Below, piece after piece: positions 6,074 through 63,285 of a stretch of 64,000 nucleotides of DNA. This DNA is from Candidatus Uhrbacteria bacterium (GTDB lineage: Bacteria; Patescibacteriota; Patescibacteriia; UBA9934; GWF2-40-263): the NCBI GenBank assembly GCA_016188495.1, contig JACPHU010000010.1, positions 349 to 64,348 of the forward strand, in the 5' to 3' direction. Within the stretch, counting starts at the first letter, position 1. Every line of letters starts with the position of its first letter. Below the pieces are notes generated by a model that was given only the letters and a program-made list of their open reading frames with translations, made no database searches and was not told where the DNA came from. A program made the position numbers and the translations under genes.

Positions 6074-6210
6074 TGCACGCCTCAAGACCGTCCTTTTATA
6101 AAAAGGGCGGTTTTTAATAGACAAAATCAAAACTCTCTGCTAAAAACAGGGGTCGCGTAAAGACCTCTCTCTTAACGCGAAGCCCTTTCCAAACCAACGG
6201 AGCGATACCC

Positions 6211-9200: not shown

Positions 9201-9396
9201 CGTCATCAAAGATCCTGGAGCCTATGAGACATCAGACACCGTGGGCGTCCGACAAACACTCCTTACAGAACTCACACGATGGAGCAAGGTCGAAGGAAAA
9301 CCCATCAATATCTCCCAACAGGTGACAGACTTGTTTGGAGCCGATTGGAGAATCCTTCAACAGCTTCAAAAACGAGGAATTATCTCCTTCACCTGA
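6211..9396 (+). CDS. SNF2-family helicase fused to class-I SAM-dependent methyltransferase domain (1061 aa)
   Basis: Helicase motifs: I 'NIGDTGTYKT', Ia 'LIFCAANARANWEQE' (SNF2 '...NW..E'), II 'IIWDESHYGKN' (DEAH-x-x-KN), III 'SATPWENSPEEIAALACIL', helicase-C 'LLVSMKTCPDSINLSV'. MTase motifs near aa 795-930: 'ILDAGCGPATLA', post-I 'VTGVDLNPWMITVA', 'FRLSVCSMVLDW', 'LIRVTDPHGLIWLT'. Confidence 0.75.
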   Translation: MSITQKRMLNLLSGMTDGERKFEFFKYLFERNELTEHDLYELLVKSIERNPSYYFEQITKNDLLKYLWHRFQAYPETLARALVRVCPELFYGNHEWVTRLIIRLQSDKRLGTELGMITVAPKQGTGQGSNRLTVAINEKLIQSIPRDVRDLDVECRIRELLYWYSRDPKLGAEYTQEQIDSANPYEAQVWNLARTHLDHYLKESFPQTVSKMNDRLFPAMHVRWWLDRSAAQTRVLNIGDTGTYKTSYSVLAMRQAEAKKVLIFCAANARANWEQELKLYLPHLRAVGRVEIVQNSSHVIADNAEFIIVAYTTLVHRPVIQMLKEQKIDGIIWDESHYGKNVVGTTPAKRALGALEIIQSHVPSLKKVVANSATPWENSPEEIAALACILRPELFPNPREFLRSGAYASPRFLRALFETCILDIGLHEVRELPTIDPKPWEDLFNPVAIRMTPPQAVLYQQLLHQIPDQTDEEDSLKIINGVDGSQKVRYLLYACDMPHVLARVAEYDWPAEIEDAFEDWSFSAKLVWLKDQIDQNIGTAKIVVASGMYVSGITKPIKDDEEILWIGRQLREWYGEKTVLILDGDVRIGEDRNDLIKQWRTQESARILLVSMKTCPDSINLSVTIEDDPTLKELLVIGFALDWKPWKQFLGRFWREGLRIPMRYVCPVLQGTIDEARMELNRRKWKSLTRFRSRVPPTDEEWTNYSKSDSATLSDLMRSPKEWVSIVNNDVRGIGEEAARCYLDKENGLSTQGEQFARSFLAAQEHMASGHIARHMRYVLQQGLIPGGILTDSTRILDAGCGPATLARTLQMPVTGVDLNPWMITVAREANPELTLNCQVGTVSQLPPSWTGRFRLSVCSMVLDWTQLGTIQDSQRIKALMELIRVTDPHGLIWLTFNEKALDESLFKTWTQALKKSGCELSPLTGFVVPVEQAGKKKPDFAFWSIVFTAAGHHLTPFDPLSFRFRFELEQMKYKQAKTGYSSKSSKDLEPTCYERFVIKDPGAYETSDTVGVRQTLLTELTRWSKVEGKPINISQQVTDLFGADWRILQQLQKRGIISFT

Positions 9397-9484
9397 GATG
9401 CGCACGCATCTCTTTTTTATTGACCAGATTCAGCAAAATTGTTAGGATTTTTTCTTACAACTTTTGTAAGAAAAGGAGGAGATC

Positions 9485-10084
9485 ATGTCTTTATCCAAAT
9501 CGCTCTTTCAACTAACCGTCCAGGAACTGGCCAAGATTCTGCAAGGACAGGACCTAGAACTCCCTGACGGGAGAGTGATAAAGATCCTTAAGACGGATTA
9601 CTACACTCGGACAGAAAACGAGAAGGGAAGTTACAAACCCATGCTCAACATGGAACCGGGAAGCGTCTATGTTGCGCGTATCATGAATGCTTTTTTGTTT
9701 TTGATTGTGGCTCTGGAAGGAACCGACTCTGGAGCCTGTGTGCGAGTGACGAGCATCCAAACTCAAAACGGAATCATCAAAGGACCGGGGCGCGTAGGAA
9801 CATGGATAGGCTTCAATATGCATCAACAGACAGGTCGTCTAATGGAACGTGAAGGGAAACCTTTGTTACTCAGTATGGAGGGAGTTCTGACACCGGAAAT
9901 TCTTCCTGTTCAGAAGACTGTGCTCATCCCCATAACAGACAGCGTTCTCTCAAAATACACGGATCATCTTGCGATCCACTTTATGTCAGAACGTTTGGAT
10001 GAAGCCTACGAAGAGTTTCTGGAACGGATAAAGAGGGAATGGATTACGGAAGACGAATTAAAAAAACGTCTAGGGATCAGTTAA
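9485..10084 (+). CDS. hypothetical protein (199 aa) in island
   Basis: ORF with AGGAGG RBS upstream (GAAAAGGAGGAGATCATG); no recognized motif. Confidence 0.55.
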   Translation: MSLSKSLFQLTVQELAKILQGQDLELPDGRVIKILKTDYYTRTENEKGSYKPMLNMEPGSVYVARIMNAFLFLIVALEGTDSGACVRVTSIQTQNGIIKGPGRVGTWIGFNMHQQTGRLMEREGKPLLLSMEGVLTPEILPVQKTVLIPITDSVLSKYTDHLAIHFMSERLDEAYEEFLERIKREWITEDELKKRLGIS

Positions 10085-10100
10085 TTCAAGGAGGATCTCT

Positions 10101-10472
10101 ATGACACTTGAGCAGACGCTCATGGCTAAAATCCAGGAATCATTTGAATACTGGAATCGGTCTGGAAGAAAAGGATTCTTCTCTACTTTTTTGGAAAAAC
10201 AAGAACCAGGAATTCTGGAATTGCTAGAAGAACTTCCGAGAATCCTGACAAAGCTGGATCGAAAAATACTCAAAGAGCTGAAAGCAAAACCTGCTCAGCG
10301 GCCTCTGTGCGATGCCATCCTAGCCCTCTACATGCCTCAAATGACTCTGCTCTATCAGCAAAAAAAGGCCAAAAAGACTTTCGAAGAATTTCTCGATCAT
10401 CTCAGACGAGAATGCCCCACAGCCGAAGCCCTGGAAAACTATCTGAAAAAATTATCTCCTCAACAGCTATAA
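10101..10472 (+). CDS. hypothetical protein (123 aa) in island
   Basis: ORF 16 nt after previous gene with GGAGGA RBS; no recognized motif. Confidence 0.5.
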   Translation: MTLEQTLMAKIQESFEYWNRSGRKGFFSTFLEKQEPGILELLEELPRILTKLDRKILKELKAKPAQRPLCDAILALYMPQMTLLYQQKKAKKTFEEFLDHLRRECPTAEALENYLKKLSPQQL

Positions 10473-10590
10473 ATGGCTGTTTTTAAATAAAAATTAAACA
10501 AAAATGATTGACATAACAAGGCTGGTTTGTTAGGTTCTAGGGTCAGATTGTTCCTTTCAATCCGAAAACTTCTTTTAAGAAGGAGAAAAA

Positions 10591-11652
10591 ATGTCTCTCA
10601 AAATGATTGAAATTCCTGGTATTTCGGTCATGAAACAAGGTGAACAGTATCTTCTCGTCTTCGTCGTACCGGCTCAGGTACTAGTCGAAATTGGGATCAC
10701 CCTGCGTTTTAATGAGCATCCCCTGGGAGTCAATAGGGGACTTACCGTTCATCGAGCAAAAGATATTCTTGCCCACATGAAGGCAGGAAAATCCAATAAC
10801 CTGATGCGTGATCCCATCCAAGGATGTCTCTATGTAGGAGACGGGCATGAATGGATCTTTGACGAAAAAAACCGTGTCCTCAGAGGCGAGGTAGAAACGG
10901 ATCCGGACAATCGTTTGGATGCTTGTTTCCTCGTCATCGATGACGGACAGCATCGATTTGCCGCATTGGAAATGTTATCCGGTGAGAATCGCCAACACTG
11001 GAGTTTCACGGTCATCGCCGGAATGAACATGTCTGTTGAAGAACGGACCGAGCTGTTCATGCAGGGTGAAAAAAGACAAAAGGTCTCTCCGCGTTTACTT
11101 TTGCAGATGATGGATGCCAACGACACCTTTGCAAATGAGTCGACGGCAACGGCTTACCGCATGGCAAAGGCTCTCAACGAAGTAAATGGATCACCCCTTA
11201 AAGGAAAGATCTACTTCGAACAGGGTCCTCGAGTTCCCAGCGGTATGGTCAGCGTGTCTTCCTTGCTTGGCCAACTTAAATACTGCGTGGGGAAAAATTC
11301 GCGCCTTATTCCCTATACCAGCGAGCAGCAGCGACAAGCTCTCCTGAATCTGTTCATCGCTGCATCGCGTCAGTGGCCCCAGGCTTGGGGACAAGAAGAT
11401 AAGACGTTGGGGAAACATATAGGTTACCTGACGCTTATCACTCTCCTTGCCCGCAGCGGCAATCTGCATAGTCTCTTGAAGGAAGACCTATCCCTAGACT
11501 CTTTCAAGAAAGCTATGGAATTTGCAAAAGGATTTCGATGGGAACAGGCCGGCGTCAAGGACGGATCAATCAATCATAACCGTCTGGCCGTCTTGTTGGA
11601 TGATCATATCGGACAGGCAATCGCCGCCTCGCAAGCTGATCTGAAAAAGTGA
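10591..11652 (+). CDS. DGQHR-domain protein (DndB-like, ParB-nuclease superfamily)
   Basis: Signature 'LVIDDGQHRFAALEML' (DGQHR motif) preceded by 'GEQYLLVFVVPAQVL', as in DndB/DpdB-type DGQHR proteins. Confidence 0.7.
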   Translation: MSLKMIEIPGISVMKQGEQYLLVFVVPAQVLVEIGITLRFNEHPLGVNRGLTVHRAKDILAHMKAGKSNNLMRDPIQGCLYVGDGHEWIFDEKNRVLRGEVETDPDNRLDACFLVIDDGQHRFAALEMLSGENRQHWSFTVIAGMNMSVEERTELFMQGEKRQKVSPRLLLQMMDANDTFANESTATAYRMAKALNEVNGSPLKGKIYFEQGPRVPSGMVSVSSLLGQLKYCVGKNSRLIPYTSEQQRQALLNLFIAASRQWPQAWGQEDKTLGKHIGYLTLITLLARSGNLHSLLKEDLSLDSFKKAMEFAKGFRWEQAGVKDGSINHNRLAVLLDDHIGQAIAASQADLKK

Positions 11653-24762: not shown

Positions 24763-25206
24763 TTAGAGAGTCGTTTTTTGAATCCGTTCCAATATTTCTG
24801 GTAGAGGTTCTTTGGTGAGGAGTTTTGGAATTTTTTCTACGAGTCGTTTCTGTACATCGTTATGGAATGCTTCCGTAAATTCGTTCAGATGTTCATGTGG
24901 GGCCGTGAGGATTAGCTCTTCGTAGCTGTGCTGCTGTAGGCGATGAAGAAGCTCTTTGGCAAGAATTTGAGAGAAGCGTCGTTCTTTTTCCATGCCAAGA
25001 TTTTCACTTTGTTCAGCAGAGTGCATGCCGCTTGGGGTCATGGTTGAAGTGCGCTCAAGGTTATCTTTTGGAGGATAATCGATCGTAATTTCTCCGGATG
25101 GCTGGATTTCTCGTTGGTGTAACGAGAAAAAGAGTGCGTGTTCGCCATCGGCAACCACTAGGAGAGTTGGCTTTTCATATGGAAGCAGGGGTTCTGGGAT
25201 GTGCAT
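24763..25206 (-). CDS. host-attachment-protein-like (eRF1/Pelota-domain-like) family protein
   Basis: N-terminus 'KPTLLVVADGEHALFFSL' resembles the Host_attach family start 'WVLVADGEKARFF'; assignment by recall only. Confidence 0.4.
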   Translation of the reverse strand: MHIPEPLLPYEKPTLLVVADGEHALFFSLHQREIQPSGEITIDYPPKDNLERTSTMTPSGMHSAEQSENLGMEKERRFSQILAKELLHRLQQHSYEELILTAPHEHLNEFTEAFHNDVQKRLVEKIPKLLTKEPLPEILERIQKTTL

Positions 25207-29582: not shown

Positions 29583-31793
29583 ATGGCTTCATCGCTGGCA
29601 GGTCATCTGACAAGGAATGTAATTCAGCGACATTTTGAGGAACTCGCCGAGCGGACCATCAACCAAGGCATCGCTGCCGGTGATAATGAAAACACGCTTG
29701 CCAAACGTGTTCTGAAGGCGACGTTTGGTCAGGATTCTCCTCTTGTGACTGCAGCCCGAGCCATACCGGGGTTGAACTACGCCCCTAATCTCGTTATCGC
29801 TGCTGTAGCAGAGGTTTTGAATGAACAGGCGTTGAATCTGTGGCCTGGAGATAATCGTCCTGCCATCAAGGCCCTTCGGATGGTTCTCAAGAATACGGCT
29901 CCAGCTCTTCTGGGGATTGGAGACGCTACTGCCGATGTGTTAGAGCGTCGGATCGATGAGGCAGTTGGAAAAGTCGTTTCTCCTTCGACGGCGGCACCTG
30001 CCGATCGAAAAGGAATATTGGATTTAGTCATGGTCATTCCAGGCTCCCGTTTCGGCATGCGTCCATTTTTTCCTGTCAAGAAAGATGCTGAGGGAAAAAT
30101 TGTCTTTACTGAACAAGGAGCGCCTGTAGTTCTTGATCGGGAGTTCACGAACTTTGCCGTCGATTGGATTCGAGAACATCCAAAAACCAAAATCACCACA
30201 GGTGGAGGACGCGATGGTCGGGCTCCGACCACGCAAGAAATCGCTCCGACCGCCCCGTGGCAGGTCTACTCGTTTCAGGAGTGGCTGCTTCTTGTGGATG
30301 GCGCGGATGAGATCGGGTCCGGGGTTGTGGAGAGTCTGCGCAAGCAGTTCGCTCCACCCAAGGGATGGGATCAGCAGATTTCTGAAGAGACATGGGCCAC
30401 GTTTCGGGCAGCCATCCGAACCCGTCATGCTCTGCAATGCGCAGGCCGGCGCAATTGGATGGATCGTCACGATTTCGAAAAGGTGATCGAAAAGATGCTG
30501 CAGGTTCAGCCTCCGGCGTTGCGCGTCAATCAGATGATCGGAGTCGCGTTTTTTCACCGCATCGGCCAAGAGGGTGCTTCGCCCGGTTTCTTTTCCGAAG
30601 AGGCACTGGGCGAATTCGAGGAGACGTTAGACGTCTTTTTGGGTGGAGAACAGGATAGGCTTACCAAGCTCATCCGTGCGGCCTGCCATATCAAACGTGC
30701 GGCAGCCAAACAGGAGATGCATCCGGTCAAAGCACTGCTTGCGATCGCAGGTCTCACGAGCGTGATCTGGTTGCCGATTCTCATCGCCGTTAGTTTATTG
30801 CTTCTTTCCGCCATGATGTTTATCCAGGGCGTTTTTACTCCATTGGAAGGTACTGTTTCGTATCTTGGGATGGATGTCAGCGCCAAGGCGTTCGCGTTAT
30901 GGATGACGTTTGGGGCTGGATGGCTGGCTTTCGTGGTGACGATTTCGTTCCCCATTTTTCAAATGGCTACCTCATGGATCCGCAGATTTTTTCCAGGTAT
31001 GAGAGACGATTGGCTTACGTCCATTGGGAGAAAAATCGTTGCCTTCGGACTTCTGGTATGCAGCGGGATGGAATTTTATGCTGTTGCCCTTAACCTGAGT
31101 CCGTTGATGCGCATGGTCATTCTCGCTTCTGGTGGGGTAGGTATCGCTCTTTCTATGTCGCTTGTTGAAGTCGGATATCGGGCTGAGGCAGAGCGTGCCG
31201 TAAAGAATTCTTATAAGCCTCTGTTGTTCCTTTTCGGGATTGTACCGTTAGGGATCGCCTATGTTTACGGAACGTATGAGGGAAATCCGCAGACGGGTAA
31301 GGCAATCGTCGACAGCTTCTCAGACGTTTGGAACATCATACAGTCCTCCAAGATGATTCAATCCATCGTATTCCTTTTGGGAGTCATTGTATTGGGAGCT
31401 CTCGTAAGGCTTTTGGAAAGGGCTCGAGTGGTCGACGGGTTTGCGGTCAAAGAACGCATCCCCGGCTCTCGCTGGGCAATGGGAATTCTGACGATCATCG
31501 GATTGATCGCGATCTGGTTTCATGAGCCGCCTAAGAAAAATCTCCCTTCGGTATGGAACTCACAGGTTCAGTCGACAGACCTCACCTACGAGGGACCAAA
31601 CGGTAAGGTAAGAGTAAAACAGCAGGTGTATGAAGACGGACTGAAGAAGACTCAGGTCAAGGGTGATATTGAGATTGCTTCACCAACACCTATTCTTCCA
31701 GCTCCAGCTCCTAAAATATCAAACAAAGAACTTTGTGCTGAAGATCCTCCGCGTCTTCCCTTCAGTATCTGTCATGACTTAGGTTACAAATAA
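29583..31793 (+). CDS. hypothetical large membrane protein (736 aa; N-terminal soluble about 370 aa, C-terminal multi-TM), GC-rich by eye
   Basis: Long ORF; many shadow ORFs on other frames consistent with elevated GC; about 8 hydrophobic helices after aa 380. Confidence 0.55.
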   Translation: MASSLAGHLTRNVIQRHFEELAERTINQGIAAGDNENTLAKRVLKATFGQDSPLVTAARAIPGLNYAPNLVIAAVAEVLNEQALNLWPGDNRPAIKALRMVLKNTAPALLGIGDATADVLERRIDEAVGKVVSPSTAAPADRKGILDLVMVIPGSRFGMRPFFPVKKDAEGKIVFTEQGAPVVLDREFTNFAVDWIREHPKTKITTGGGRDGRAPTTQEIAPTAPWQVYSFQEWLLLVDGADEIGSGVVESLRKQFAPPKGWDQQISEETWATFRAAIRTRHALQCAGRRNWMDRHDFEKVIEKMLQVQPPALRVNQMIGVAFFHRIGQEGASPGFFSEEALGEFEETLDVFLGGEQDRLTKLIRAACHIKRAAAKQEMHPVKALLAIAGLTSVIWLPILIAVSLLLLSAMMFIQGVFTPLEGTVSYLGMDVSAKAFALWMTFGAGWLAFVVTISFPIFQMATSWIRRFFPGMRDDWLTSIGRKIVAFGLLVCSGMEFYAVALNLSPLMRMVILASGGVGIALSMSLVEVGYRAEAERAVKNSYKPLLFLFGIVPLGIAYVYGTYEGNPQTGKAIVDSFSDVWNIIQSSKMIQSIVFLLGVIVLGALVRLLERARVVDGFAVKERIPGSRWAMGILTIIGLIAIWFHEPPKKNLPSVWNSQVQSTDLTYEGPNGKVRVKQQVYEDGLKKTQVKGDIEIASPTPILPAPAPKISNKELCAEDPPRLPFSICHDLGYK

Positions 31794-38638: not shown

Positions 38639-39514
38639 ATGAAAATTCGAAAAGCTATTATTCCTGTTGCAGGAATGGGAACGCGCTTTCTTCCAGCTTC
38701 TAAAGCCCAGCCTAAAGAAATGCTCGCCGTCGTTGATAAGCCCGTCATCCAATACATTGTCGAGGAAGCGGTTGCCAGTGGTATTGAAGAAATCATCTTT
38801 GTCACAGCCATTGGAAAACGCGCCATCGAAGATCACTTTGACCGAAACTTCGAGCTTGAATATCGCCTTGAACAAAAAAACAAAATAAGTGAACTCGATA
38901 TTGTTAAACAAATAGGGAAACTCGCCCACTTCGCCTTTGTACGCCAAACCAAACCTTTGGGAGATGGTCACGCCGTTTTATCCGCCCTTCCTTTTATCGA
39001 CCAGCATGAACCCGTTGCCGTCTTGTTTGGAGACGACATTATCGATGCGCAACGCCCTGCATTGGCCCAGCTGATAGACATCTACGAAACCTACGGCGAT
39101 CCTGTGATAGCCCTGCAAAAAGTTCCGAAAAAAGAAGTCTCGCGTTTTGGCGTGATCGGAGGCAAACGCCTCAACCCCAACGTCTGGGAAATCAATCAGT
39201 TCGTGGAAAAACCAGAGGTAGAAAAGGCGCCCTCGGATCTGATCGTCATCGGACGCTACATCCTTACTCCAGAAATTTTTGAACTGCTTCCGCAACAGGC
39301 TGCAGGCAAAGACGGAGAAATCCGATTGGCTGATGCCTTTATTACCCGACTTGAACAAGGAAAAGCTCTCTACGGCTGTAAGTTTGAAGGAATACGTTAC
39401 GACTGCGGAAGCAAGCTAGGATTCTTGAAAGCTCAAGTAGAGTTGGGGCTCAAACATCCAGAAATTGGTTCGGAACTAAAACGGTATTTAACACAACACA
39501 AAAAAACTCTGTAA
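38639..39514 (+). CDS. galU: UTP--glucose-1-phosphate uridylyltransferase
   Basis: 'MKIRKAIIPVAGMGTRFLPASKAQPKEMLAVVDKPVIQYIVEEAV' = GalU signature N-terminus. Confidence 0.88.
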   Translation: MKIRKAIIPVAGMGTRFLPASKAQPKEMLAVVDKPVIQYIVEEAVASGIEEIIFVTAIGKRAIEDHFDRNFELEYRLEQKNKISELDIVKQIGKLAHFAFVRQTKPLGDGHAVLSALPFIDQHEPVAVLFGDDIIDAQRPALAQLIDIYETYGDPVIALQKVPKKEVSRFGVIGGKRLNPNVWEINQFVEKPEVEKAPSDLIVIGRYILTPEIFELLPQQAAGKDGEIRLADAFITRLEQGKALYGCKFEGIRYDCGSKLGFLKAQVELGLKHPEIGSELKRYLTQHKKTL

Positions 39515-39522
39515 ACGTTTCT

Positions 39523-40896
39523 ATGAAGACGCTTTGGCGCAATCTCTCCCTTCTTTGCCTCATGCTCATGCTTGTCGGAGCTGGCTGTGGTGGCAATACG
39601 CAAGCACAAACGCTTGCCACAAAACCTGTCACTCTGACCATCTGGCGGGTGTTTGACGATGACAGCACCTTCTCAAACATCATGAGTTCTTACCAGGCTC
39701 TTCATCCGAATATCTCTTTTAATTACCGAGAACTCCGGTACAACGAATACGAGGACGAACTCCTGCGGGCGTTTGCCGAAGGAGAGGGACCGGATATTTT
39801 TTCCATCCATAACACCTGGATCGGAGAATATAAAAGTTTGATCAAACCCTTGCCCAATTCATTAAAGATTCCCTATTCAGAAACCAGAGGAACGATCAAA
39901 AAAGAAACCGTGTACACCATTCAGGAAGAACCCACTCTTTCCCAAAGAGCCCTCAAAAACGATTACGTAGATGTCGTTGTGCAAGATGTCCTGCGCTCCT
40001 ACAGAGCGAGTGCAAAAGCCGATGTGGAAGAACGCATTTTTGCCCTCCCTTTGTCTGTGGATTCCCTCGCTCTCTATTACAACAAAGACCTCTTAAACGC
40101 CGCAGGAATTCCGGAACCCCCTTCGACATGGACGGAATTTCAAGACAACGTAGGCAAGCTCACAAAAATTGGTGTCGACGATAAGATTATTCAGGCAGGC
40201 GCTAGTATCGGAACAAGCAAAAATGTGGAACGAGCGTTTGATATCCTTTCCATTTTGATGATGCAAAACGGAACACAAATGACAGACAGTCGATATCAAG
40301 CCACCTTTGGTCAGGAAACAGAAGCAGGATTCCTGGCTTCAGAAGCGACTCGTTTTTATACAGATTTTGCCAATCCGCTCAAAGCGGTCTATACCTGGAA
40401 TGCCGATCAGCCCGATTCGTTTGATGCCTTCGTTAAAGGCAACACGGCATTCTTTTTTGGATATAGTTATCATGACGCGTTTATTCGCACAGCGAATCAA
40501 AAACTCAATTACGCTATCACTGCTCTTCCTCAAATTGATGGAGGGAAAACTGTTAATTACGCCAACTATTGGGTTGAAACGGTTGCCAAGTCTTCCAACG
40601 CCGGGGATTGGGCCTGGGATTTCGTGCAGTTTGCCGCTGATAAGGACCATGTCGGATCCTATATAAAGGCGGCAAAAAAACCCGCCGCCCTGCGCTCCCT
40701 CATCAGCGCTCAATTGGAAGACGAATTGCTGTCCATCTTCGCTGGTCAAACCCTCACGGCGCGTTCCTGGTACATGGGCAATAATGCCAACGTCGCAGAA
40801 GAAGCCTTTTTGGATCTGATCGACGCTTATCTCAAAGGAAGCGATCAAGAACGAGCTCTCAAAGACGCTCAAAATAAAGTGAATCAAACTCTATGA
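39523..40896 (+). CDS. ABC-transporter extracellular solute-binding lipoprotein (family 1, sugar-type), no adjacent permease genes
   Basis: Lipoprotein signal 'LVGAGCGG'; size and composition of SBP family 1. Confidence 0.55.
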   Translation: MKTLWRNLSLLCLMLMLVGAGCGGNTQAQTLATKPVTLTIWRVFDDDSTFSNIMSSYQALHPNISFNYRELRYNEYEDELLRAFAEGEGPDIFSIHNTWIGEYKSLIKPLPNSLKIPYSETRGTIKKETVYTIQEEPTLSQRALKNDYVDVVVQDVLRSYRASAKADVEERIFALPLSVDSLALYYNKDLLNAAGIPEPPSTWTEFQDNVGKLTKIGVDDKIIQAGASIGTSKNVERAFDILSILMMQNGTQMTDSRYQATFGQETEAGFLASEATRFYTDFANPLKAVYTWNADQPDSFDAFVKGNTAFFFGYSYHDAFIRTANQKLNYAITALPQIDGGKTVNYANYWVETVAKSSNAGDWAWDFVQFAADKDHVGSYIKAAKKPAALRSLISAQLEDELLSIFAGQTLTARSWYMGNNANVAEEAFLDLIDAYLKGSDQERALKDAQNKVNQTL

Positions 40897-41618
40897 GAAA
40901 ATCTCTCTTTCTCATTGCTCTTTTCTTCCTCACAATCTTGCCTCAAACGGGATTCGCCTATAATTCCAGAATTTGCCAACAAAGCAGTGTCTGTTTGGAA
41001 AAAGAAGTGGGAGTCTTTATGCAAGGAATCTCTAAAGGTTGTGGAAACTCTGGGGATTGTACGTTGGCAGACATCATGACTGTATTCGTGAACGTGGGAA
41101 ATTACGTGGTTGGAATCATTGGAGGAATTGTTTTATTGATGTACGTTATCGGAGGCTTCTTCATGCTTATTTCAGGAGGTAACAGTGAACGTGTGAAAAA
41201 AGGAAAGCAATATATGACGATTTCAACCGTGGGATTGCTCATTGTCATGTTTTCCTACTTAGGAATTTATGCGTTACGAGGGGTTCTCCAATACGGTTCT
41301 GTCGCGCTCACGGATGCCGAAAACGAATATGTCGCCTGTTCAGGACCGACGGTGGAAGGAAAATCCTGCGACCTAAATTCAACCTGTACCAACGGAGGAT
41401 ATACGTGCGAGTCTCTGTGCCGGCAAAATCACCCCCTCTCTACAACTTCAACAACCCAGGATACGACGATCACCGAATACTACGACTGTGTGGATAGGAA
41501 ATCGACTGCGAGTTCAAGCGAAGAAGGGGGGAACGTCTACTACGTTGAAAGTAGTTGTGAAAAAAATCTCTGTCCTGGAGATGTAGACGTCCAATGCTGT
41601 CAGCTCAAACGCAGATAA
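40893..41618 (+). CDS. VirB2/TrbC-like (T4SS-pilin family) small membrane protein paralogue 1, with Cys-rich (15 Cys) C-terminal extension
   Basis: Shared core 'VLLMYVIGGFFMLISGGNSERVKKGKQYMTISTVGLLIVMFSYLGIYA' aligns with the other four paralogues. Confidence 0.6.
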   Translation: MRKSLFLIALFFLTILPQTGFAYNSRICQQSSVCLEKEVGVFMQGISKGCGNSGDCTLADIMTVFVNVGNYVVGIIGGIVLLMYVIGGFFMLISGGNSERVKKGKQYMTISTVGLLIVMFSYLGIYALRGVLQYGSVALTDAENEYVACSGPTVEGKSCDLNSTCTNGGYTCESLCRQNHPLSTTSTTQDTTITEYYDCVDRKSTASSSEEGGNVYYVESSCEKNLCPGDVDVQCCQLKRR

Positions 41619-41654
41619 TCCTTTCACTCTTTTTCTTTCTAGAAATTTTGAATC

Positions 41655-41999
41655 ATGAACTCACCTATGCATAAACGAATTCTATTGCTGTTCTACCTTT
41701 TTTTCATCATTCCTCACACGACCCTTGCCGCTGAGCTGACAAACCCGCTCTATACGACAGATATCCGAGATGTGATCGGGCGTATTATCCAAGCGGTTTT
41801 AGGTGTGACAGGAGCGGTCGCTCTTCTCATGTTCGTCTACGGAGGATTTCTCTGGCTTATTTCCGGCGGCGAAACGGAAAAAGTAAAAAAAGGAAAAGAT
41901 ACCATGAAGTGGGCGATTCTGGGATTAGCCGTCATCATCGGTGCTTACATGATTGTCAGCACCATCATCAATGCCCTAGAAAAAGGAACGGTTGCTTAA
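41655..41999 (+). CDS. VirB2/TrbC-like pilin-family protein paralogue 2
   Basis: Signal peptide plus 'ALLMFVYGGFLWLISGGETEKVKKGKDTMKWAILGLAVIIGAYMIVS'. Confidence 0.6.
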   Translation: MNSPMHKRILLLFYLFFIIPHTTLAAELTNPLYTTDIRDVIGRIIQAVLGVTGAVALLMFVYGGFLWLISGGETEKVKKGKDTMKWAILGLAVIIGAYMIVSTIINALEKGTVA

Positions 42000-42146
42000 C
42001 CCGTGTGGATATCTTAGTACTCCAAACACATAAATTTCGGTAAAATAGAATTGAATACAATATTAACTCAACTAATTAGCATTCTCTTTTACTTTTCCTT
42101 CTTTGACTGACAAAGAAGAGAGACCAGTACGAAAGAGGTAACGTTT

Positions 42147-42608
42147 ATGTCAAACATTTTATCTAAAAAGCGTGTCGGTTATTTCCTTGGAGCTCTCATC
42201 GCTTTTTCTTTCGGAGCCACTGCCCTCTTGGGTGTCCATAACGTGCACGCACAAGCGCTCACATCCGACGAGCTCTTTGGAGGAACAGCCACGGGAGATG
42301 AATTTGCCTCAACAGCCGGTTTGGGAGAAGCGGACCTTGTGGATACGATCGGTTCTATTATTCGTGTCGCTTTGGGATTTTTAGGAGTGATTGCCGTGGT
42401 GATTATCCTCTTGGGTGGATTCAAGTGGATGACTGCGGCTGGAAATGACGACAAAGTAAAGGAAGCGAAGAAACTTATTTTTTCAGGAATTGTCGGTTTG
42501 GTAATCGTTCTCTCTGCCTATGCTATCGCAAGCTTCGTGATCAATTCGCTTGTTACAGCAACCGCTGGTAGTACTGAAGAAGAAACAACCACAACAACCT
42601 CCAGCTAA
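42147..42608 (+). CDS. VirB2/TrbC-like pilin-family protein paralogue 3 (Thr-rich C-terminus)
   Basis: 'VVIILLGGFKWMTAAGNDDKVKEAKKLIFSGIVGLVIVLSAYAIASFVI'. Confidence 0.6.
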   Translation: MSNILSKKRVGYFLGALIAFSFGATALLGVHNVHAQALTSDELFGGTATGDEFASTAGLGEADLVDTIGSIIRVALGFLGVIAVVIILLGGFKWMTAAGNDDKVKEAKKLIFSGIVGLVIVLSAYAIASFVINSLVTATAGSTEEETTTTTSS

Positions 42609-42689
42609 TTTCGCCAAAATTTCTTTCGTTTCAAACCCCTGTCGGATACGACGGGGGTTCGCACAAGGGCATGAATCGCGTGCCTTTAT

Positions 42690-43136
42690 GTGAACCCACT
42701 TCAACTTATGACCTTAAAACGTTCAGCTGGTTTAGGAATAATGCTCGTAATCTTTCTTTGTTCGTTTCTGATCGTTTTTGCTCCTCACCCAACATTGGCT
42801 CAAACAGCAACATCTACCATTTCACAGGGATTGCAAAATACCGCCGGCACAACCTATGACACCAACCTGACAGCAACGGTCTTTATAGGAAATCTCATTC
42901 GAGCCCTTATCGGAGCCACAGGTATTCTCTTTCTGGTCATTACGGTGTATGCAGGAATTCTGTATATGACAGCGGCAGGAGACGATACGAAAATCAAAAA
43001 GGCAAAAAGCATGCTCACCAGCTCTGTCATTGGCATCATCATCGTCGTTGGAGCCTATGCCCTCACAAGCTATGTTGTCAGTGCTCTTTCTACGGCAGCT
43101 GTACCAACAACAACAGCACCGGAAAAAACTGATTAA
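42690..43136 (+). CDS. VirB2/TrbC-like pilin-family protein paralogue 4
   Basis: 'LVITVYAGILYMTAAGDDTKIKKAKSMLTSSVIGIIIVVGAYALTSYVV'. Confidence 0.6.
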   Translation: MNPLQLMTLKRSAGLGIMLVIFLCSFLIVFAPHPTLAQTATSTISQGLQNTAGTTYDTNLTATVFIGNLIRALIGATGILFLVITVYAGILYMTAAGDDTKIKKAKSMLTSSVIGIIIVVGAYALTSYVVSALSTAAVPTTTAPEKTD

Positions 43137-43172
43137 TCTTTTATCAATTTCAACTCAATCTATTCATCTCTT

Positions 43173-43559
43173 ATGAAAAATCTTTCTCTCAAGGTAACCG
43201 TCTGGCTCTCTGTCCTTCCGACCCTCTTGCTTCCAGCCGCTGTTTTTGCTCAACTCTCTGATGCACAAACAGATCTTGCAGAAGTCGGTGAGGCTATTGG
43301 AACCGACGCCACGAATAACGATCTTCCAACGCTTATCGGTAACATCATCTCTGCTCTTCTTTCCGTTCTCGGTATCATTTTCGTCGTTTTGGTCGTGTAC
43401 GCCGGTTTCCTCTACCTCACCGCGGCGGGTGACGATACAAAAGTCAAAAAAGCAAAAACGCTTCTTACTCAATCCATCATCGGTCTGGTGATCATCGTCG
43501 CCGCCTACGCGATCAGCGCCTTCGTGATCGATGCTCTTGTCGAAGTAACAGGAACCTAA
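43173..43559 (+). CDS. VirB2/TrbC-like pilin-family protein paralogue 5
   Basis: 'VVLVVYAGFLYLTAAGDDTKVKKAKTLLTQSIIGLVIIVAAYAISAFVI'. Confidence 0.6.
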   Translation: MKNLSLKVTVWLSVLPTLLLPAAVFAQLSDAQTDLAEVGEAIGTDATNNDLPTLIGNIISALLSVLGIIFVVLVVYAGFLYLTAAGDDTKVKKAKTLLTQSIIGLVIIVAAYAISAFVIDALVEVTGT

Positions 43560-43694
43560 GAGAATTTCAAAATTTTGGAAACACTCGATCAGAAATGGTC
43601 GGGTGTTTTCATTTCAAACAAAAAACCCTGGCTTCGACTCACTCCCGCGTGTTTGCGAGAGTGAGTGAGACCAGGGTCTGGAGTTGAGGAAAAC

Positions 43695-44264
43695 CTAGTT
43701 CCATCTCGGGGTCATTTGATAAGCTCCAATCTGGCGGTGGCCGCCGGGCTTACTTACCAATCCCATGTTGCAGGACAGCACGTCTGAGTCCAGCTTGTTC
43801 GTAGGGCGATAAATTGTCTGAAGACCAAGTCCCTTAACGAGTATCTCCTTCGATGGATGGAGATACGTAATCCCCGGTTCATCTCCCGCCCGCCAGGTTA
43901 TCCAGACATCCGTCTGTGTGGCGAGGTCTAGAGCCAAGACAATTCCATCGTACTGACCGTCTCCATCGCGGTCATAATAGACCTCTCTGAATCCGGTCGG
44001 CTTGCGTGGAGGGGCAAAGATGTCAGCAATGGGCACACCGTGATCTGTAAAAATCACAAGCAGTGAACCTTCTCCCCCACAACGCGTCCGGGCATGCGTT
44101 TGATCCAGCGCGATGATGTGAAGAGTATCAGGTTTAACACTTTCAATATTATAAATCGATACGACCGTAGGCCGACTCAGGACCATCCAATTTGCTTGGG
44201 ACTGAGCCAGAGCCGAACCACAGAAAACCACCAGACTTAGAAGTAAACACAGTCTCAGTCTCAT
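43695..44264 (-). CDS. secreted hypothetical protein (189 aa), GC-rich by eye
   Basis: Signal peptide 'MRLRLCLLLSLVVFCGSALA'. Confidence 0.55.
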   Translation of the reverse strand: MRLRLCLLLSLVVFCGSALAQSQANWMVLSRPTVVSIYNIESVKPDTLHIIALDQTHARTRCGGEGSLLVIFTDHGVPIADIFAPPRKPTGFREVYYDRDGDGQYDGIVLALDLATQTDVWITWRAGDEPGITYLHPSKEILVKGLGLQTIYRPTNKLDSDVLSCNMGLVSKPGGHRQIGAYQMTPRWN

Positions 44265-44266
44265 CT

Positions 44267-44770
44267 CTACCTCCGCTCTCGTTCCTGGACAAGAGTCTCA
44301 CCGATAAGCATGGCACAAGCTGCCTGTTCGGCGACCGTCTTTGGTGCGCGATCCTTGGGGCACTCAACGATCGGATCACCCGAGGAAGACTGATTCGCCG
44401 AACCAACGACGGTCCGAGCCGGAGCCAGAGGTGGAAGACCTCCGGATCTACCCGTCCGGACAAATCCACGACCATCGTAAGTGACGGTCGGGGCAGCATA
44501 ACCACCCGCAGACTCACCAACTTCTTCCTGAAACACACCGGTAGTGAGCCGGGTATCTCCATGATGAAGCGTGATCGATATCCCTTTTTTTACAGCCGTT
44601 TCAGCCAATAAGTAAGGACGAGCATCGGTTGCTCTCACTAGATCAGCAGCTCCGCGGGCGGGGCCCGTATAGTTGACTTGTAGGCCCGACTGCGGATCCA
44701 CCTTGGTCAAGGTGGCACAACCAATCATCGACAAGAAAAAAATGCATGCGGACATCAAACCTACTCTCAT
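44267..44770 (-). CDS. lipoprotein, hypothetical (start at MRVGLMSACIFFLSMIGC), GC-rich by eye
   Basis: Lipobox 'SMIGC'; AGGAGA RBS 8 nt upstream; family-2 repeat sits in its 5' leader. Confidence 0.55.
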   Translation of the reverse strand: MRVGLMSACIFFLSMIGCATLTKVDPQSGLQVNYTGPARGAADLVRATDARPYLLAETAVKKGISITLHHGDTRLTTGVFQEEVGESAGGYAAPTVTYDGRGFVRTGRSGGLPPLAPARTVVGSANQSSSGDPIVECPKDRAPKTVAEQAACAMLIGETLVQERERR

Positions 44771-44790
44771 TGATTTCTCCTTAAGTTTCC

Positions 44791-44839
44791 ATACCCCTTC
44801 GACTCCGGTTTGTCGAACAAACCTCCGCTCAGGGAATAT
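44791..44839 (-). repeat. Family-2 short dispersed repeat, copy e (minus orientation), in 5' leader of lipoprotein gene
   Basis: Reverse complement CATCATATTCCCTGAGCGGAGGTTTGTTCGACAAACCGGAGTCGAAGGGGTAT. Confidence 0.7.
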
Positions 44840-44977
44840 GATGATCACCACCACTGCTATCTGATTTGAAGGAACAAATAAGGCATTGAGGTAGAGGGGC
44901 TACTTCTATTTAGAAAATGAAAGTAACACATCAATGCCTTATTTATCCCTTCAAATCATACAAAAGAAGAAAAGACT

Positions 44978-62742: not shown

Positions 62743-63285
62743 TTACCAGAACAAGTTGGTTGCGATGATACGACCATCTGTTGATTGCCCTCGTACGAGT
62801 CCCATTCGAGTTGTCGCAACTTCCTCGCTCGTGAACAGCCTTATGGCTGGGTGCACGTATAACGACCGGAAGATTGTTTTAGGTACAATCATCTCAAACA
62901 GGTGAAAATATCGGTATGAAAAAGGATTTTCATCTGGCTGTGCAGACGCGCGAGGACTGTCCGTCTCGCCAGCCTGATGTAGAGATTTTACGTAACGAAT
63001 TTGAATATCCGCTGCTTCTTCTACAGTCAAAATAGGAGGCATACCGGGAAGTTCAATGGTCGTGAGTTCTTCTTGGATTTCTCGAACAGGATCTGTCTCA
63101 CAAAACTGAGGATCCCGATTGCTAAAGAGATCCATTACCTCTGTGAAGTGTCGCATCTGAACGAGGAATCGAGCATCGTTCCCTTTTTCCATTTTGGCCT
63201 GGAATCGATCCTCTAAAATATGGACGCCCATGTCAGTGAGCTCTGCTGCTCCACCGATGGCACCATAGATCCGTTCGCCTCGCAT
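62743..63285 (-). CDS. hypothetical protein (180 aa)
   Basis: ORF only. Confidence 0.45.
   Translation of the reverse strand: MRGERIYGAIGGAAELTDMGVHILEDRFQAKMEKGNDARFLVQMRHFTEVMDLFSNRDPQFCETDPVREIQEELTTIELPGMPPILTVEEAADIQIRYVKSLHQAGETDSPRASAQPDENPFSYRYFHLFEMIVPKTIFRSLYVHPAIRLFTSEEVATTRMGLVRGQSTDGRIIATNLFW

What the first reader, a model, noticed from the sequence alone, without database searches (positions are those of the whole stretch)
40893..43559. Tandem array of five diversified VirB2/TrbC-like (T4SS-pilin-family) paralogues; the first carries a 15-Cys C-terminal module
Five consecutive same-strand genes (114-241 aa) share signal peptide, a variable exposed segment and a conserved TM hairpin: '(V/I)Y(G/A)GF(L/K)(W/Y)(L/M)(I/T)(S/A)(G/A)G(E/N/D)(T/D/S)(E/D/T)K(V/I)KK(G/A)K' followed by a Gly/Ala-rich helix '...IIGAY...'. 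No VirB4/VirD4/relaxase genes lie in the window. Variable N-terminal parts with a conserved membrane core suggest diversifying selection on a surface filament or adhesin. Paralogue 1 (40893..41618) adds a Cys-rich tail (CSGPTVEGKSCDLNSTCTNGGYTCESLCRQN...CCQLKRR) that resembles a disulfide-knotted adhesive or toxin-like module.
Basis: partly seen in the sequence, partly recalled or inferred. Interest (0 to 1): 0.68.

Follow-up and report, generated by a model that had tools for sequence, protein, structure and literature searches.

The report
Conserved T4SS-type pilin operon, Uhrbacteria
Five neighbouring genes in this ultra-small groundwater bacterium (Candidatus Uhrbacteria) encode distinct conjugation-type (VirB2-like) pilins, a kind of gene array already described in this bacterial group; what is new here is that the set is fixed across the lineage and that its first member carries a lineage-specific disulfide-rich surface domain.

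Summary
Five same-strand genes at 40893-43559 all match Pfam T4SS_pilin (PF18895). Each has a signal peptide, two hydrophobic helices and a basic loop. One correction: paralogue 1 has 14 Cys (4 N-terminal, 10 in the tail), not 15 in the tail. The window is a Candidatus Uhrbacteria (Patescibacteria) chromosome. Tandem arrays of divergent VirB2-like pilins in Patescibacteria are already published (Cell 2023; Microb Genom 2025), so the kind is known. Each paralogue has a 1:1 positional orthologue in 30 related species, and dN/dS is 0.08-0.24. New details: (i) an operon GalU / orphan sugar-binding lipoprotein / P1-P5 conserved across Uhrbacteria, with the lipoprotein stop overlapping the P1 start; (ii) no VirB4, VirD4 or VirB6 within 10 kb in any species; (iii) P1's confidently modelled 10-Cys beta-rich tail has no fold, Pfam or sequence relative outside this pilin family and is modular (absent, 4-Cys or 10-Cys); (iv) a conserved promoter-like element plus strong ribosome-binding site before P3, the most conserved pilin. 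Most likely these are non-redundant subunits of a T4SS-dependent pilus or conduit, with P1 as a specialised adhesive subunit. Assembly and dependence on VirB4 are untested.

The parts
38639..39514 (+). galU (UTP-glucose-1-phosphate uridylyltransferase), first conserved gene of the unit
   Evidence: TIGR01099 342.5 bits against a 326.8 cut-off. Found directly upstream of the SBP gene in every related locus with enough sequence (29 of 30 species loci), 71-93% identity. dN/dS 0.03. The start follows the gene call in L001.
39523..40896 (+). Orphan MalE-like sugar-type solute-binding lipoprotein, translationally coupled to P1
   Evidence: Pfam SBP_bac_1 100.7 bits. Best PDB relatives are sugar-binding proteins, E 2e-17. 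Far below every NCBIfam equivalog cut-off. The N-terminus MKTLWRNLSLLCLMLMLVGAGC reads as a lipobox. No permease or ATPase genes nearby. Its stop overlaps the P1 start by 4 nt (ATGA/GTGA) in 21 of 32 loci and lies within 10 nt in 31 of 32. dN/dS 0.04.
40893..41618 (+). P1: VirB2-like pilin with a conserved 4-Cys N-terminal ectodomain and a 10-Cys beta-rich C-terminal domain (residues ~145-241)
   Evidence: PF18895 26.5 bits. 83 homologues, nearly all Uhrbacteria, with invariant Cys. AF2 models: full-length pLDDT 81.9, tail alone pLDDT 92.1 and pTM 0.79. The tail profile finds only 29 cluster representatives among 1.84e9 proteins, always C-terminal in proteins of 265 aa or less.
41655..41999 (+). 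P2: the most canonical TrbC/VirB2-like pilin
   Evidence: PF18895 51.1 bits and PF04956 34.7 bits, both above cut-off. Named 'TrbC/VirB2 family protein' by NCBI.
42003..42046 (+). Conserved cis-element in the P2-P3 spacer: near-palindromic box GTGTGGATATCTT (42003-42015) and a -10-like TAAAAT (42041-42046) 25 nt downstream
   Evidence: Conserved blocks in an alignment of 11 species. The 10-mer TGTGGATATC occurs once per locus in 19 of 33 Uhrbacteria loci, always in this spacer. The 13-mer is unique in the window at 0 mismatches. Its function as promoter or operator is inferred.
42131..42139 (+). Strong Shine-Dalgarno (GAAAGAGGT; consensus AAAGGAGGTGA) 7-8 nt before the P3 ATG
   Evidence: Invariant G/A core across 11 species. 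The other four pilin genes have no comparable SD.
42147..42608 (+). P3: most conserved pilin of the set, Ser/Thr-rich C-terminus; candidate major subunit
   Evidence: PF18895 36.3 bits; NF045849 42.0 bits against a 40 cut-off. 58-91% identity across species. TM core pN/pS 0.015.
42708..43136 (+). P4: pilin with a Thr-rich C-terminus (longest ORF starts at GTG 42690; gene callers used ATG 42741)
   Evidence: PF18895 33.8 bits. The start MTLKRS matches orthologues in L003 and L004. This end of the array is duplicated in some species, giving 6-7 pilins.
43173..43559 (+). P5: last pilin of the array
   Evidence: PF18895 42.1 bits; NF045849 43.8 bits against a 40 cut-off. 75% identical to its L003 orthologue.

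Best explanation
These are five non-redundant VirB2/TrbC-family (PF18895) pilins of a Patescibacteria-type type IV secretion system. They sit in an old, fixed operon with galU and an orphan sugar-binding lipoprotein. Proposed mechanism, inferred unless marked shown: each protein is exported by Sec and cleaved after an A-x-A site. It then sits in the cytoplasmic membrane as a helical hairpin, with the K-rich loop inside and both termini outside (topology shown only as sequence features and an AF2 model). A VirB3-VirB4-TrsD machine encoded elsewhere in the genome extracts the subunits and polymerises them into a pilus or wall-spanning conduit used in contact with a host cell, as proposed for Ca. 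Southlakia. P3, possibly with P4 and P5, is probably the bulk subunit. It is driven by its own conserved promoter-like element and a strong ribosome-binding site, and it is the most conserved member. P1 is probably a low-copy specialised subunit at the tip, the base or as an adhesin. Both of its extracytoplasmic ends are disulfide-rich, and its C-terminal domain is a swappable module. The co-translated lipoprotein and GalU may supply a sugar-recognition or glycosylation function.
For: Family: Pfam and NCBIfam scores above curated cut-offs. Hairpin architecture. The best-probability PDB match of the helical part is an archaeal conjugation pilus, but it is weak. Link to machinery for this family: in a complete Patescibacteria genome a P2-like pilin (52% identity) lies about 7 kb from PrgI, TraC-like and VirB4 and about 7 kb from a VirD4-like protein. 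Literature: VirB2-like arrays of 2-11 genes in 383 assemblies, with pilins near virB4 in 1135 of 1948 assemblies (PMC12102498); the pilin array is essential in Ca. Southlakia (PMC10633639; PMC12857230). Some Uhrbacteria that carry this operon do have VirB4 (L017 and L023 genomes), and in another Uhrbacteria genome VirB3-VirB4-TrsD are CDS 2-4 while the pilin is CDS 584. Non-redundancy: 1:1 positional orthology in 30 species and purifying selection. P3 as bulk subunit: conserved spacer element and SD and the highest conservation. P1 as specialised subunit: invariant Cys on both extracytoplasmic ends, a confident globular tail model, modular presence or absence of the tail, and concerted loss of two Cys in P0073, consistent with a disulfide pair.
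Against: No T4SS machinery lies in the window or within 10 kb of the operon in any of the 30 species. The published survey scored VirB4 in only 18 of 36 Uhrbacteria assemblies read, and in 2 of the 5 operon-bearing genomes I could look up. I could not establish a VirB4 in this genome. No VirB2-type pilus has yet been seen in any Patescibacteria; reviews call it a possibility. There is no significant sequence or fold match to solved VirB2/TraA pilins. The roles assigned to P1 and P3 are inference only. dS (0.5-1.2) is near saturation, so dN/dS values are approximate.
Confidence: 0.55

Rival explanations
1. The pilin-like proteins are membrane or cell-wall channel components of a monoderm T4SS and do not form an extended extracellular pilus. 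They would line or gate the translocation channel, as is assumed for small hairpin proteins of Gram-positive and mycoplasma conjugation systems.
For: P3 and P5 pass the NCBIfam equivalog for a Mycoplasma ICE pilin-like protein. Patescibacteria VirB4 nests within the monoderm MPF-FATA class, whose systems generally lack pili. Weak phmmer hits link pCF10 PrgF to P3 orthologues (E 2e-4 to 1e-2). No pilus has been observed so far.
Against: A 95-residue disulfide-rich ectodomain on P1 and Ser/Thr-rich exposed tails on P3 and P4 fit a surface-exposed structure better. Five conserved distinct subunits is a lot for a channel lining. The PrgF link fails in profile comparison (hhalign probability 1.5%).
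Confidence: 0.2
2. The operon builds a surface or membrane structure that does not need the T4SS ATPase. A VirB2-like hairpin assembly would work with the co-translated sugar-binding lipoprotein, for example in capture or uptake of host-derived glycans or in envelope organisation.
For: The operon is always detached from T4SS genes. It was found in all 30 species loci, while VirB4 was scored in only about half of Uhrbacteria assemblies. Coupling of the SBP stop to the P1 start is conserved. The SBP has no cognate permease nearby.
Against: The VirB4 'No' calls may reflect incomplete MAGs or the 50% HMM-coverage rule, since CPR VirB4 hits cover only about 57-59% of the profile. No precedent is known to me for VirB2-family proteins assembling without VirB4. 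Two operon-bearing genomes do have VirB4. Gene adjacency alone does not show a physical SBP-pilin link.
Confidence: 0.13
3. One reading: an array under diversifying selection that provides antigenic or host-range variation of a surface filament, as proposed for VirB2 paralogues of Bartonella and Anaplasma.
For: Paralogues differ most in their exposed N-terminal segments. The published survey offers this as a possibility for Patescibacteria arrays. The P4/P5 end is occasionally duplicated (6-7 pilins in L025-L027), and the P1 tail is modular.
Against: 1:1 positional orthologues across 30 species. dN/dS 0.08-0.24, and the exposed N-terminal segments are as constrained as the rest (pN/pS 0.03-0.20). 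Only signal peptides and C-terminal tails are relaxed, and none exceeds 1.
Confidence: 0.07
4. They are not pilins at all but small membrane proteins of another kind, such as holins or bacteriocin immunity proteins.
For: Small size and two hydrophobic helices are shared with such proteins. There is no significant match to solved pilin structures.
Against: Curated pilin HMMs are passed. No holin or immunity family was hit, even at E up to 1. Cleavable signal peptides and a chromosomal housekeeping context conserved across the lineage do not fit phage lysis or bacteriocin loci.
Confidence: 0.02

Closest known systems
VirB2-like pilin arrays of Patescibacteria (survey of 3,035 genomes, PMC12102498; essential six-pilin cluster in the Ca. 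Southlakia epibionticum T4SS locus, PMC10633639 and PMC12857230)
   Same: Same phylum and same Pfam family (PF18895/PF04956). Tandem same-strand genes with strong divergence: the literature gives mean 25% and maximum 54% identity, and here global identity is 23-42%. No relaxase nearby.
   Different: Here the array is not in or near the T4SS cluster. It sits in a lineage-wide operon with galU and an orphan SBP. Members are shown to be 1:1 orthologues under purifying selection. The lead member carries Cys-rich ectodomains that those papers do not mention. In the closest relative the survey scored only two of the five genes.
Classical conjugative pilins: Agrobacterium VirB2, RP4 TrbC, F TraA (my own knowledge of these families plus Pfam PF04956)
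   Same: Signal peptide, two hydrophobic helices, a short basic loop, both termini extracytoplasmic. P2 passes the TrbC/VirB2 HMM.
   Different: The host is monoderm, with no outer membrane. No VirB5-type tip protein is known in these systems. There are five subunit types instead of one. There is no evidence for cyclisation or N-acetylation. No significant sequence or fold match to solved pilins was found.
Mbov_0395-family pilin-like conjugal transfer protein of Mycoplasma ICEs (NCBIfam NF045849)
   Same: P3 (42.0 bits) and P5 (43.8 bits) exceed the 40-bit equivalog cut-off. Both hosts are monoderm with MPF-FATA-type systems.
   Different: P1, P2 and P4 fall below the cut-off. The Mycoplasma protein is a single ICE gene, whereas this is a chromosomal five-gene set. 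The function of the Mycoplasma protein was not checked here.
VirB2 paralogue arrays of Bartonella and Anaplasma (as cited in PMC12102498)
   Same: Tandem amplification of divergent T4SS pilin genes.
   Different: Those are interpreted as antigenic or host-range variation. Here the copies are ancient, individually conserved and under purifying selection.
Type IVb minor pilins with an added C-terminal domain, such as CofB and TcpB (an analogy from my own knowledge, not tested)
   Same: A pilin module fused to an extra beta-rich domain, encoded with the major pilin. This is the working model for P1 as a tip or initiator subunit.
   Different: An unrelated pilin superfamily. These proteins have SPase I-type signal peptides and no prepilin-peptidase motif. 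The resemblance is functional analogy only.

Membership tests
VirB2/TrbC-type T4SS pilin (Pfam PF18895 T4SS_pilin, PF04956 TrbC) | Match to the family HMM at or above the curated cut-off | tested here: met
   PF18895 scores: P2 51.1, P5 42.1, P3 36.3, P4 33.8 (cut-off 26.6); P1 26.5, which is 0.1 bit short, but many P1 orthologues carry a precomputed PF18895 hit. PF04956: P2 34.7 against 27.9.
VirB2/TrbC-type T4SS pilin (Pfam PF18895 T4SS_pilin, PF04956 TrbC) | Cleavable signal peptide followed by two hydrophobic helices joined by a short basic loop | tested here: met
   Hydropathy segments and the K-rich loop are seen in all five. The AF2 model of P1 has helices 58-93 and 98-134. Cleavage sites were read from the sequence, not predicted by a dedicated tool.
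VirB2/TrbC-type T4SS pilin (Pfam PF18895 T4SS_pilin, PF04956 TrbC) | Encoded with T4SS machinery (VirB4, VirB3, VirB6, VirD4) | tested here: not met
   None in the 64-kb window or within 10 kb of the operon in 30 species. The link exists for a family member in another Patescibacteria genome.
VirB2/TrbC-type T4SS pilin (Pfam PF18895 T4SS_pilin, PF04956 TrbC) | VirB4 present elsewhere in the same genome | not testable with these tools
   Only this contig is available. The VirB4 homology search saturated with closer relatives. The published table gives Yes for 2 and No for 3 operon-bearing relatives.
VirB2/TrbC-type T4SS pilin (Pfam PF18895 T4SS_pilin, PF04956 TrbC) | Similarity in sequence or fold to solved conjugative pilins | tested here: inconclusive
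   A profile of the five against PDB sequences gave nothing. Foldseek of the P1 model gave as best-probability hit the A. pernix conjugation pilus 8dfu, at E 1.8, probability 0.66, TM 0.57 on the target.
VirB2/TrbC-type T4SS pilin (Pfam PF18895 T4SS_pilin, PF04956 TrbC) | Polymerises into a pilus | not testable with these tools
   Requires microscopy or proteomics. Not yet shown for any Patescibacteria.
Patescibacteria VirB2-like pilin array (PMC12102498) | Two or more pilin genes, tandem or separated by one gene, strongly divergent, in a Patescibacteria genome | tested here: met
   Five tandem genes with 23-42% global identity. The organism is Candidatus Uhrbacteria, GTDB class ABY1.
Patescibacteria VirB2-like pilin array (PMC12102498) | Located inside the T4SS gene cluster, as in Ca. 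Southlakia | tested here: not met
   The survey itself reports pilins away from virB4 in about 40% of assemblies.
Mbov_0395 pilin-like conjugal transfer protein (NF045849, equivalog) | Score at or above 40 bits | tested here: inconclusive
   P5 43.8 and P3 42.0 pass. P2 32.4, P4 30.4 and P1 14.6 do not.
PrgF of pCF10-type Gram-positive T4SS | Detectable homology to PrgF | tested here: inconclusive
   phmmer E 2e-4 to 1e-2 against P3 orthologues of other species only. hhalign probability 1.5%.
Antigenically varying pilin arrays (Bartonella/Anaplasma type) | Rapid diversification or positive selection of copies | tested here: not met
   1:1 orthology. dN/dS 0.08-0.24, with exposed segments at 0.03-0.20.
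Type IV (T4P/T2SS) pilins | Class III signal peptide with a G|(F/M)xxxE prepilin-peptidase site | tested here: not met
   None of the five N-termini has this motif. All end in A-x-A-type sites after a hydrophobic core (sequences).

The most novel reading that the evidence does not exclude
The GalU / sugar-binding lipoprotein / five-pilin operon builds a heteromeric VirB2-like surface organelle that is specific to Uhrbacteria. It has a dedicated disulfide-knotted tip or adhesin domain (the P1 tail, a fold with no detectable relative). It works together with the co-translated lipoprotein and may not need a VirB4 ATPase at all. That would make it a new kind of cell-surface apparatus derived from conjugative pilins.
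Probability: 0.12. Interest if true: 0.8.

Novelty: new variant of a known kind. Interest (0 to 1): 0.38.

Why it matters
Patescibacteria make up a large share of bacterial diversity, and most appear to live attached to other cells. Their T4SS and its pilin array are essential in the one species tested, yet nobody knows what the array builds or why several pilins are needed. This locus adds three testable points. First, in one whole lineage the pilins are a fixed, individually conserved set, which argues for a heteromeric structure with division of labour and against antigenic variation. Second, one subunit carries a modular disulfide-rich ectodomain that is a natural candidate for the host-contact part. 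Third, the set is co-expressed with a sugar-binding lipoprotein and GalU and has an internal conserved regulatory element. None of this changes the basic classification, which is already in the literature and in NCBI's annotation.

Tried and rejected
2. Whole-P1 model against PDB: no significant hit.
3. Profile of the five paralogues against PDB sequences: nothing.
4. PrgF homology: weak phmmer hits were not confirmed by hhalign.
5. Finding VirB4 in this genome: the homology search with a CPR VirB4 returned over 8,000 hits, and the top 120 were all at least 78% identical, so no Uhrbacteria or HYV70 entry was visible.
6. A VirB4 on a contig of the same length (33,271 bp) as the L007 contig proved to be a different contig.
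7. The consensus promoter/terminator scan gave fewer sites than shuffles and missed the conserved spacer element.
8. The GC-rich genes downstream of the array as a unique insertion: rejected, because homologues follow P5 in L004 and L007.
9. The two large unannotated ORFs (660 and 736 aa) as hidden T4SS parts: no family hit and no match to pCF10 or CPR T4SS proteins.
10. The 2026 'Pam pilus' preprint describes an unrelated Ig-fold donor-strand pilus.
11. Holin, immunity-protein or type IV pilin assignments: no support.

Full report
OBSERVATION. Region 40893-43559 holds five consecutive + strand ORFs of 241, 114, 153, 148 and 128 aa. For the fourth, the start conserved with orthologues is ATG 42708, which gives 142 aa. 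A pilin HMM built from the five hits exactly these five frames in the window. They are real but old paralogues: pairwise BLASTP E-values run from 1e-8 to 3e-30, with 30-52% identity over 68-118 aligned residues. Each has an N-terminal hydrophobic segment that ends in an A-x-A-type site, then two long hydrophobic segments joined by a Lys-rich loop. Paralogue 1 (P1) has 14 Cys: four in the N-terminal exposed part and ten in the C-terminal tail. The quoted loop motif fits P2 and P5 exactly and the others only approximately.

ORGANISM AND CONTEXT. P1 is identical to NCBI protein HYV70_02725 of a Candidatus Uhrbacteria bacterium on a 64,349-bp contig. Uhrbacteria belong to GTDB class ABY1 of Patescibacteria. 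The window is ordinary chromosome. It carries H+-PPase, trigger factor, rnpA, dnaA, dnaN, PBP1, the IscS/NifU block, galU, Wzy/flippase, SpoIID, RuvB, PolX, the CCA enzyme and four tRNAs. None of the long ORFs scanned, including every ORF over 500 aa, has a T4SS ATPase, coupling-protein, VirB6, VirB8 or relaxase domain. phmmer with all pCF10 T4SS proteins and with CPR-type VirB4, TraC-like and T4CP seeds finds nothing in any reading frame.

FAMILY. All five match Pfam PF18895 (T4SS_pilin). P2-P5 score 33.8-51.1 bits against a cut-off of 26.6, and P1 scores 26.5. P2 also passes PF04956 (TrbC/VirB2). P3 and P5 pass the NCBIfam equivalog NF045849, a pilin-like conjugal transfer protein of Mycoplasma ICEs. 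NCBI already annotates P2 as 'TrbC/VirB2 family protein' and several relatives as 'pilin'. No holin, immunity or type IV pilin signal was found. There is no significant sequence or fold match to solved conjugative pilins. Membership therefore rests on the curated HMMs and on the architecture.

WHAT IS ALREADY KNOWN. Tandem arrays of divergent VirB2-like pilins are a published feature of Patescibacteria. A survey reports 441 arrays of 2-11 genes in 383 assemblies, with mean identity 25% and maximum 54%, and pilin genes near virB4 in 1135 of 1948 assemblies (PMC12102498). In Ca. Southlakia epibionticum the pilin series inside the T4SS cluster is essential (PMC10633639). A 2025 review calls a pilus 'an intriguing possibility' that has not yet been observed (PMC12857230). 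The kind of feature is therefore known.

COMPARATIVE ANATOMY (new here). I fetched 30 loci from distinct GTDB species and three metagenomic loci. Every locus with enough sequence has the same unit on one strand: galU, an SBP_bac_1 lipoprotein, then P1, P2, P3, P4 and P5. Each pilin best matches the window paralogue of the same position. Against L003, identity is 56-75% on the diagonal and 23-43% off it. The duplications therefore predate the radiation of these species, and each copy has been kept. Against the closest relative, L004, dN/dS is 0.08-0.24 for the pilins, 0.03 for galU and 0.04 for the SBP. The N-terminal exposed segments are as constrained as the rest (pN/pS 0.03-0.20), and only signal peptides and C-terminal tails are relaxed. 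dS is 0.5-1.2, so these ratios are approximate. This contradicts region-level diversifying selection. Change in the array is limited to occasional duplication at the P4/P5 end (6-7 pilins in L025-L027) and to add-ons at C-termini. The block stays intact while flanking genes are rearranged.

THE SBP LINK. The upstream gene is a divergent MalE-like sugar-binding protein with a lipobox and no permease or ATPase partner nearby. Its stop codon overlaps the P1 start (ATGA/GTGA) in 21 of 32 loci and lies within 10 nt in 31 of 32. That is conserved translational coupling. A physical or functional partnership with P1 is an inference from it.

THE CYS-RICH PILIN. P1 has 83 homologues, nearly all from Uhrbacteria-type genomes. 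The N-terminal module (I-C-x4-7-C ... EVGxFMxGIS..CGNxGxCxLxDIM) and its four Cys are conserved in all of them. The tail has exactly ten invariant Cys in 22 of 23 long forms. The one exception has lost Cys7 and Cys10 together, as expected for a disulfide pair. By the positive-inside rule both Cys-rich parts lie outside the cell. AlphaFold2 models the tail confidently as a beta-rich globular domain (pLDDT 92.1, pTM 0.79). It has no Pfam family, no Foldseek match in PDB or BFVD, and only 29 relatives among 1.84 billion cluster representatives. All of those relatives carry it at the C-terminus of a protein of 265 aa or less. The tail is modular across species: absent, a 4-Cys mini-module, the 10-Cys domain, or an unrelated Cys-rich tail. 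In L032 it is P4 that carries a ~300-residue Cys-rich extension. Tail pN/pS is 0.28, which is relaxed but still purifying.

AN INTERNAL CONTROL ELEMENT. The longest spacer in the array (147 nt, between P2 and P3) contains blocks conserved across species whose synonymous sites are saturated. These are the box GTGTGGATATCTT at 42003-42015, a -10-like TAAAAT 25 nt downstream, TTAACTC, and a strong SD 7-8 nt before the P3 ATG. The 10-mer TGTGGATATC occurs once per locus in 19 of 33 Uhrbacteria loci, always in this spacer, and the 13-mer is unique in the window. P3 is also the most conserved pilin (58-91% identity; TM core pN/pS 0.015). I infer an internal promoter or operator that raises expression of P3, and perhaps of P4 and P5. 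This makes P3 the candidate bulk subunit.

WHERE IS THE MACHINE? In a complete Patescibacteria genome (L036) a P2-like pilin lies between PrgI/TraC-like/VirB4 and a VirD4-like gene, so the family is tied to T4SS machinery. In Uhrbacteria the operon is always remote from such genes. The published tables score VirB4 in 18 of 36 Uhrbacteria assemblies that I read, against 80% phylum-wide, and in 2 of the 5 operon-bearing genomes I could look up. In one Uhrbacteria genome VirB3-VirB4-TrsD are CDS 2-4 and the pilin is CDS 584. In the closest relative, only two adjacent pilin genes and no VirB4 were scored. MAG incompleteness and the 50% coverage rule may explain the 'No' calls, because CPR VirB4 hits cover only about 57-59% of the profile. 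I could not resolve this for the present genome.

MECHANISM AND RIVALS. The best-supported reading (confidence 0.55) is five non-redundant pilins that a remote VirB4 machine assembles into a heteromeric pilus or conduit for host contact. P3 (with P4 and P5) would be the bulk, and P1 a specialised disulfide-stabilised adhesive, tip or base subunit. The SBP and GalU may add sugar recognition or glycosylation of the Ser/Thr-rich tails. Shown here: family, architecture, orthology, constraint, coupling, and the confident tail model. Inferred: assembly, subunit roles and any SBP/GalU involvement. The rivals are a non-pilus channel component (0.20), an ATPase-independent SBP-coupled structure (0.13), an antigenic-variation array (0.07) and non-pilin membrane proteins (0.02).

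VERDICT. It is a member of an already described kind, with lineage-specific variations worth a specialist's note. It is not a surprise.

Noticed in passing
window 39523-40896 and the junction at 40893-40896; L003-L033: An orphan MalE-like sugar-binding lipoprotein gene always precedes the pilin array. Its stop overlaps the first pilin's start (ATGA/GTGA) in 21 of 32 loci. No ABC permease or ATPase genes lie nearby.
   Followed up: partly
window 42003-42046 and 42131-42139 (P2-P3 spacer); same spacer in 19 of 33 Uhrbacteria loci: A conserved near-palindromic box GTGTGGATATCTT, a -10-like TAAAAT 25 nt downstream, and an invariant strong Shine-Dalgarno before P3. The 10-mer is found nowhere else in the loci held. 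The consensus promoter scan missed it.
   Followed up: partly
window 43600-44850 (ORFs 43695-44264 and 44267-44854, minus strand): A GC-rich patch (50-56% GC against 42-47% around it) covers two secreted or lipoprotein-like ORFs with no family. Homologues follow the array in L004 and L007 too, so it is a clade-level feature and not a unique insertion.
   Followed up: partly
window 29583-31793; equivalents in L003 (14105-16186) and the JGI 502-kb contig: A conserved 693-736-aa protein with a ~380-aa soluble N-terminal part and about six TM segments. It has no Pfam or NCBIfam family and lies a few genes from the array in relatives but 9 kb away here.
   Followed up: partly
L032 6074-7435: In this species the P4 orthologue is a 453-aa ORF. 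It is a normal pilin core followed by a ~300-residue extension with 14 Cys, which shows that Cys-rich C-terminal add-ons are not confined to P1.
   Followed up: no
window 4091-11652: A possible DNA-modification or defence islet: an unannotated 660-aa ORF, a 1061-aa SNF2-helicase plus methyltransferase fusion (6211-9396), and a DndB-like protein (10591-11652, below Pfam cut-off).
   Followed up: no
window 62743-63285 and 24763-25206: A SMODS-associated NUDIX domain protein (26.1 bits against a 25 cut-off), and a baeRF/Host_attach family protein next to the VIT1 and Fe-S cluster genes. The latter is also present in L003.
   Followed up: no
L035 (Miltoncostaea oceani megaplasmid NZ_CP064357.1, 743920-744444) and NCBIfam NF045849: PF18895-type pilins are not confined to Patescibacteria. 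An Actinomycetota megaplasmid has an annotated 'pilin' 37.5% identical to P2 over 64 residues (tblastn E 3e-4), about 15 kb from a DUF87 ATPase. Two of the window's pilins also pass a Mycoplasma ICE equivalog. This bears on the published remark that monoderm MPF-FATA systems lack pilins.
   Followed up: partly
L036 792-2705: Patescibacteria VirB4 is remarkably conserved. More than 8,000 database clusters match, and the best 120 are all 78% or more identical to the query. This contrasts with 23-42% identity among the pilins of a single array.
   Followed up: no
PMC12102498 Table S1 and Table S3: The published survey scores VirB4 in only 18 of 36 Uhrbacteria assemblies read, against 80% phylum-wide. 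It scores only 2 of the 5 pilin genes in the closest relative of this genome, so arrays in this lineage are undercounted there.
   Followed up: partly
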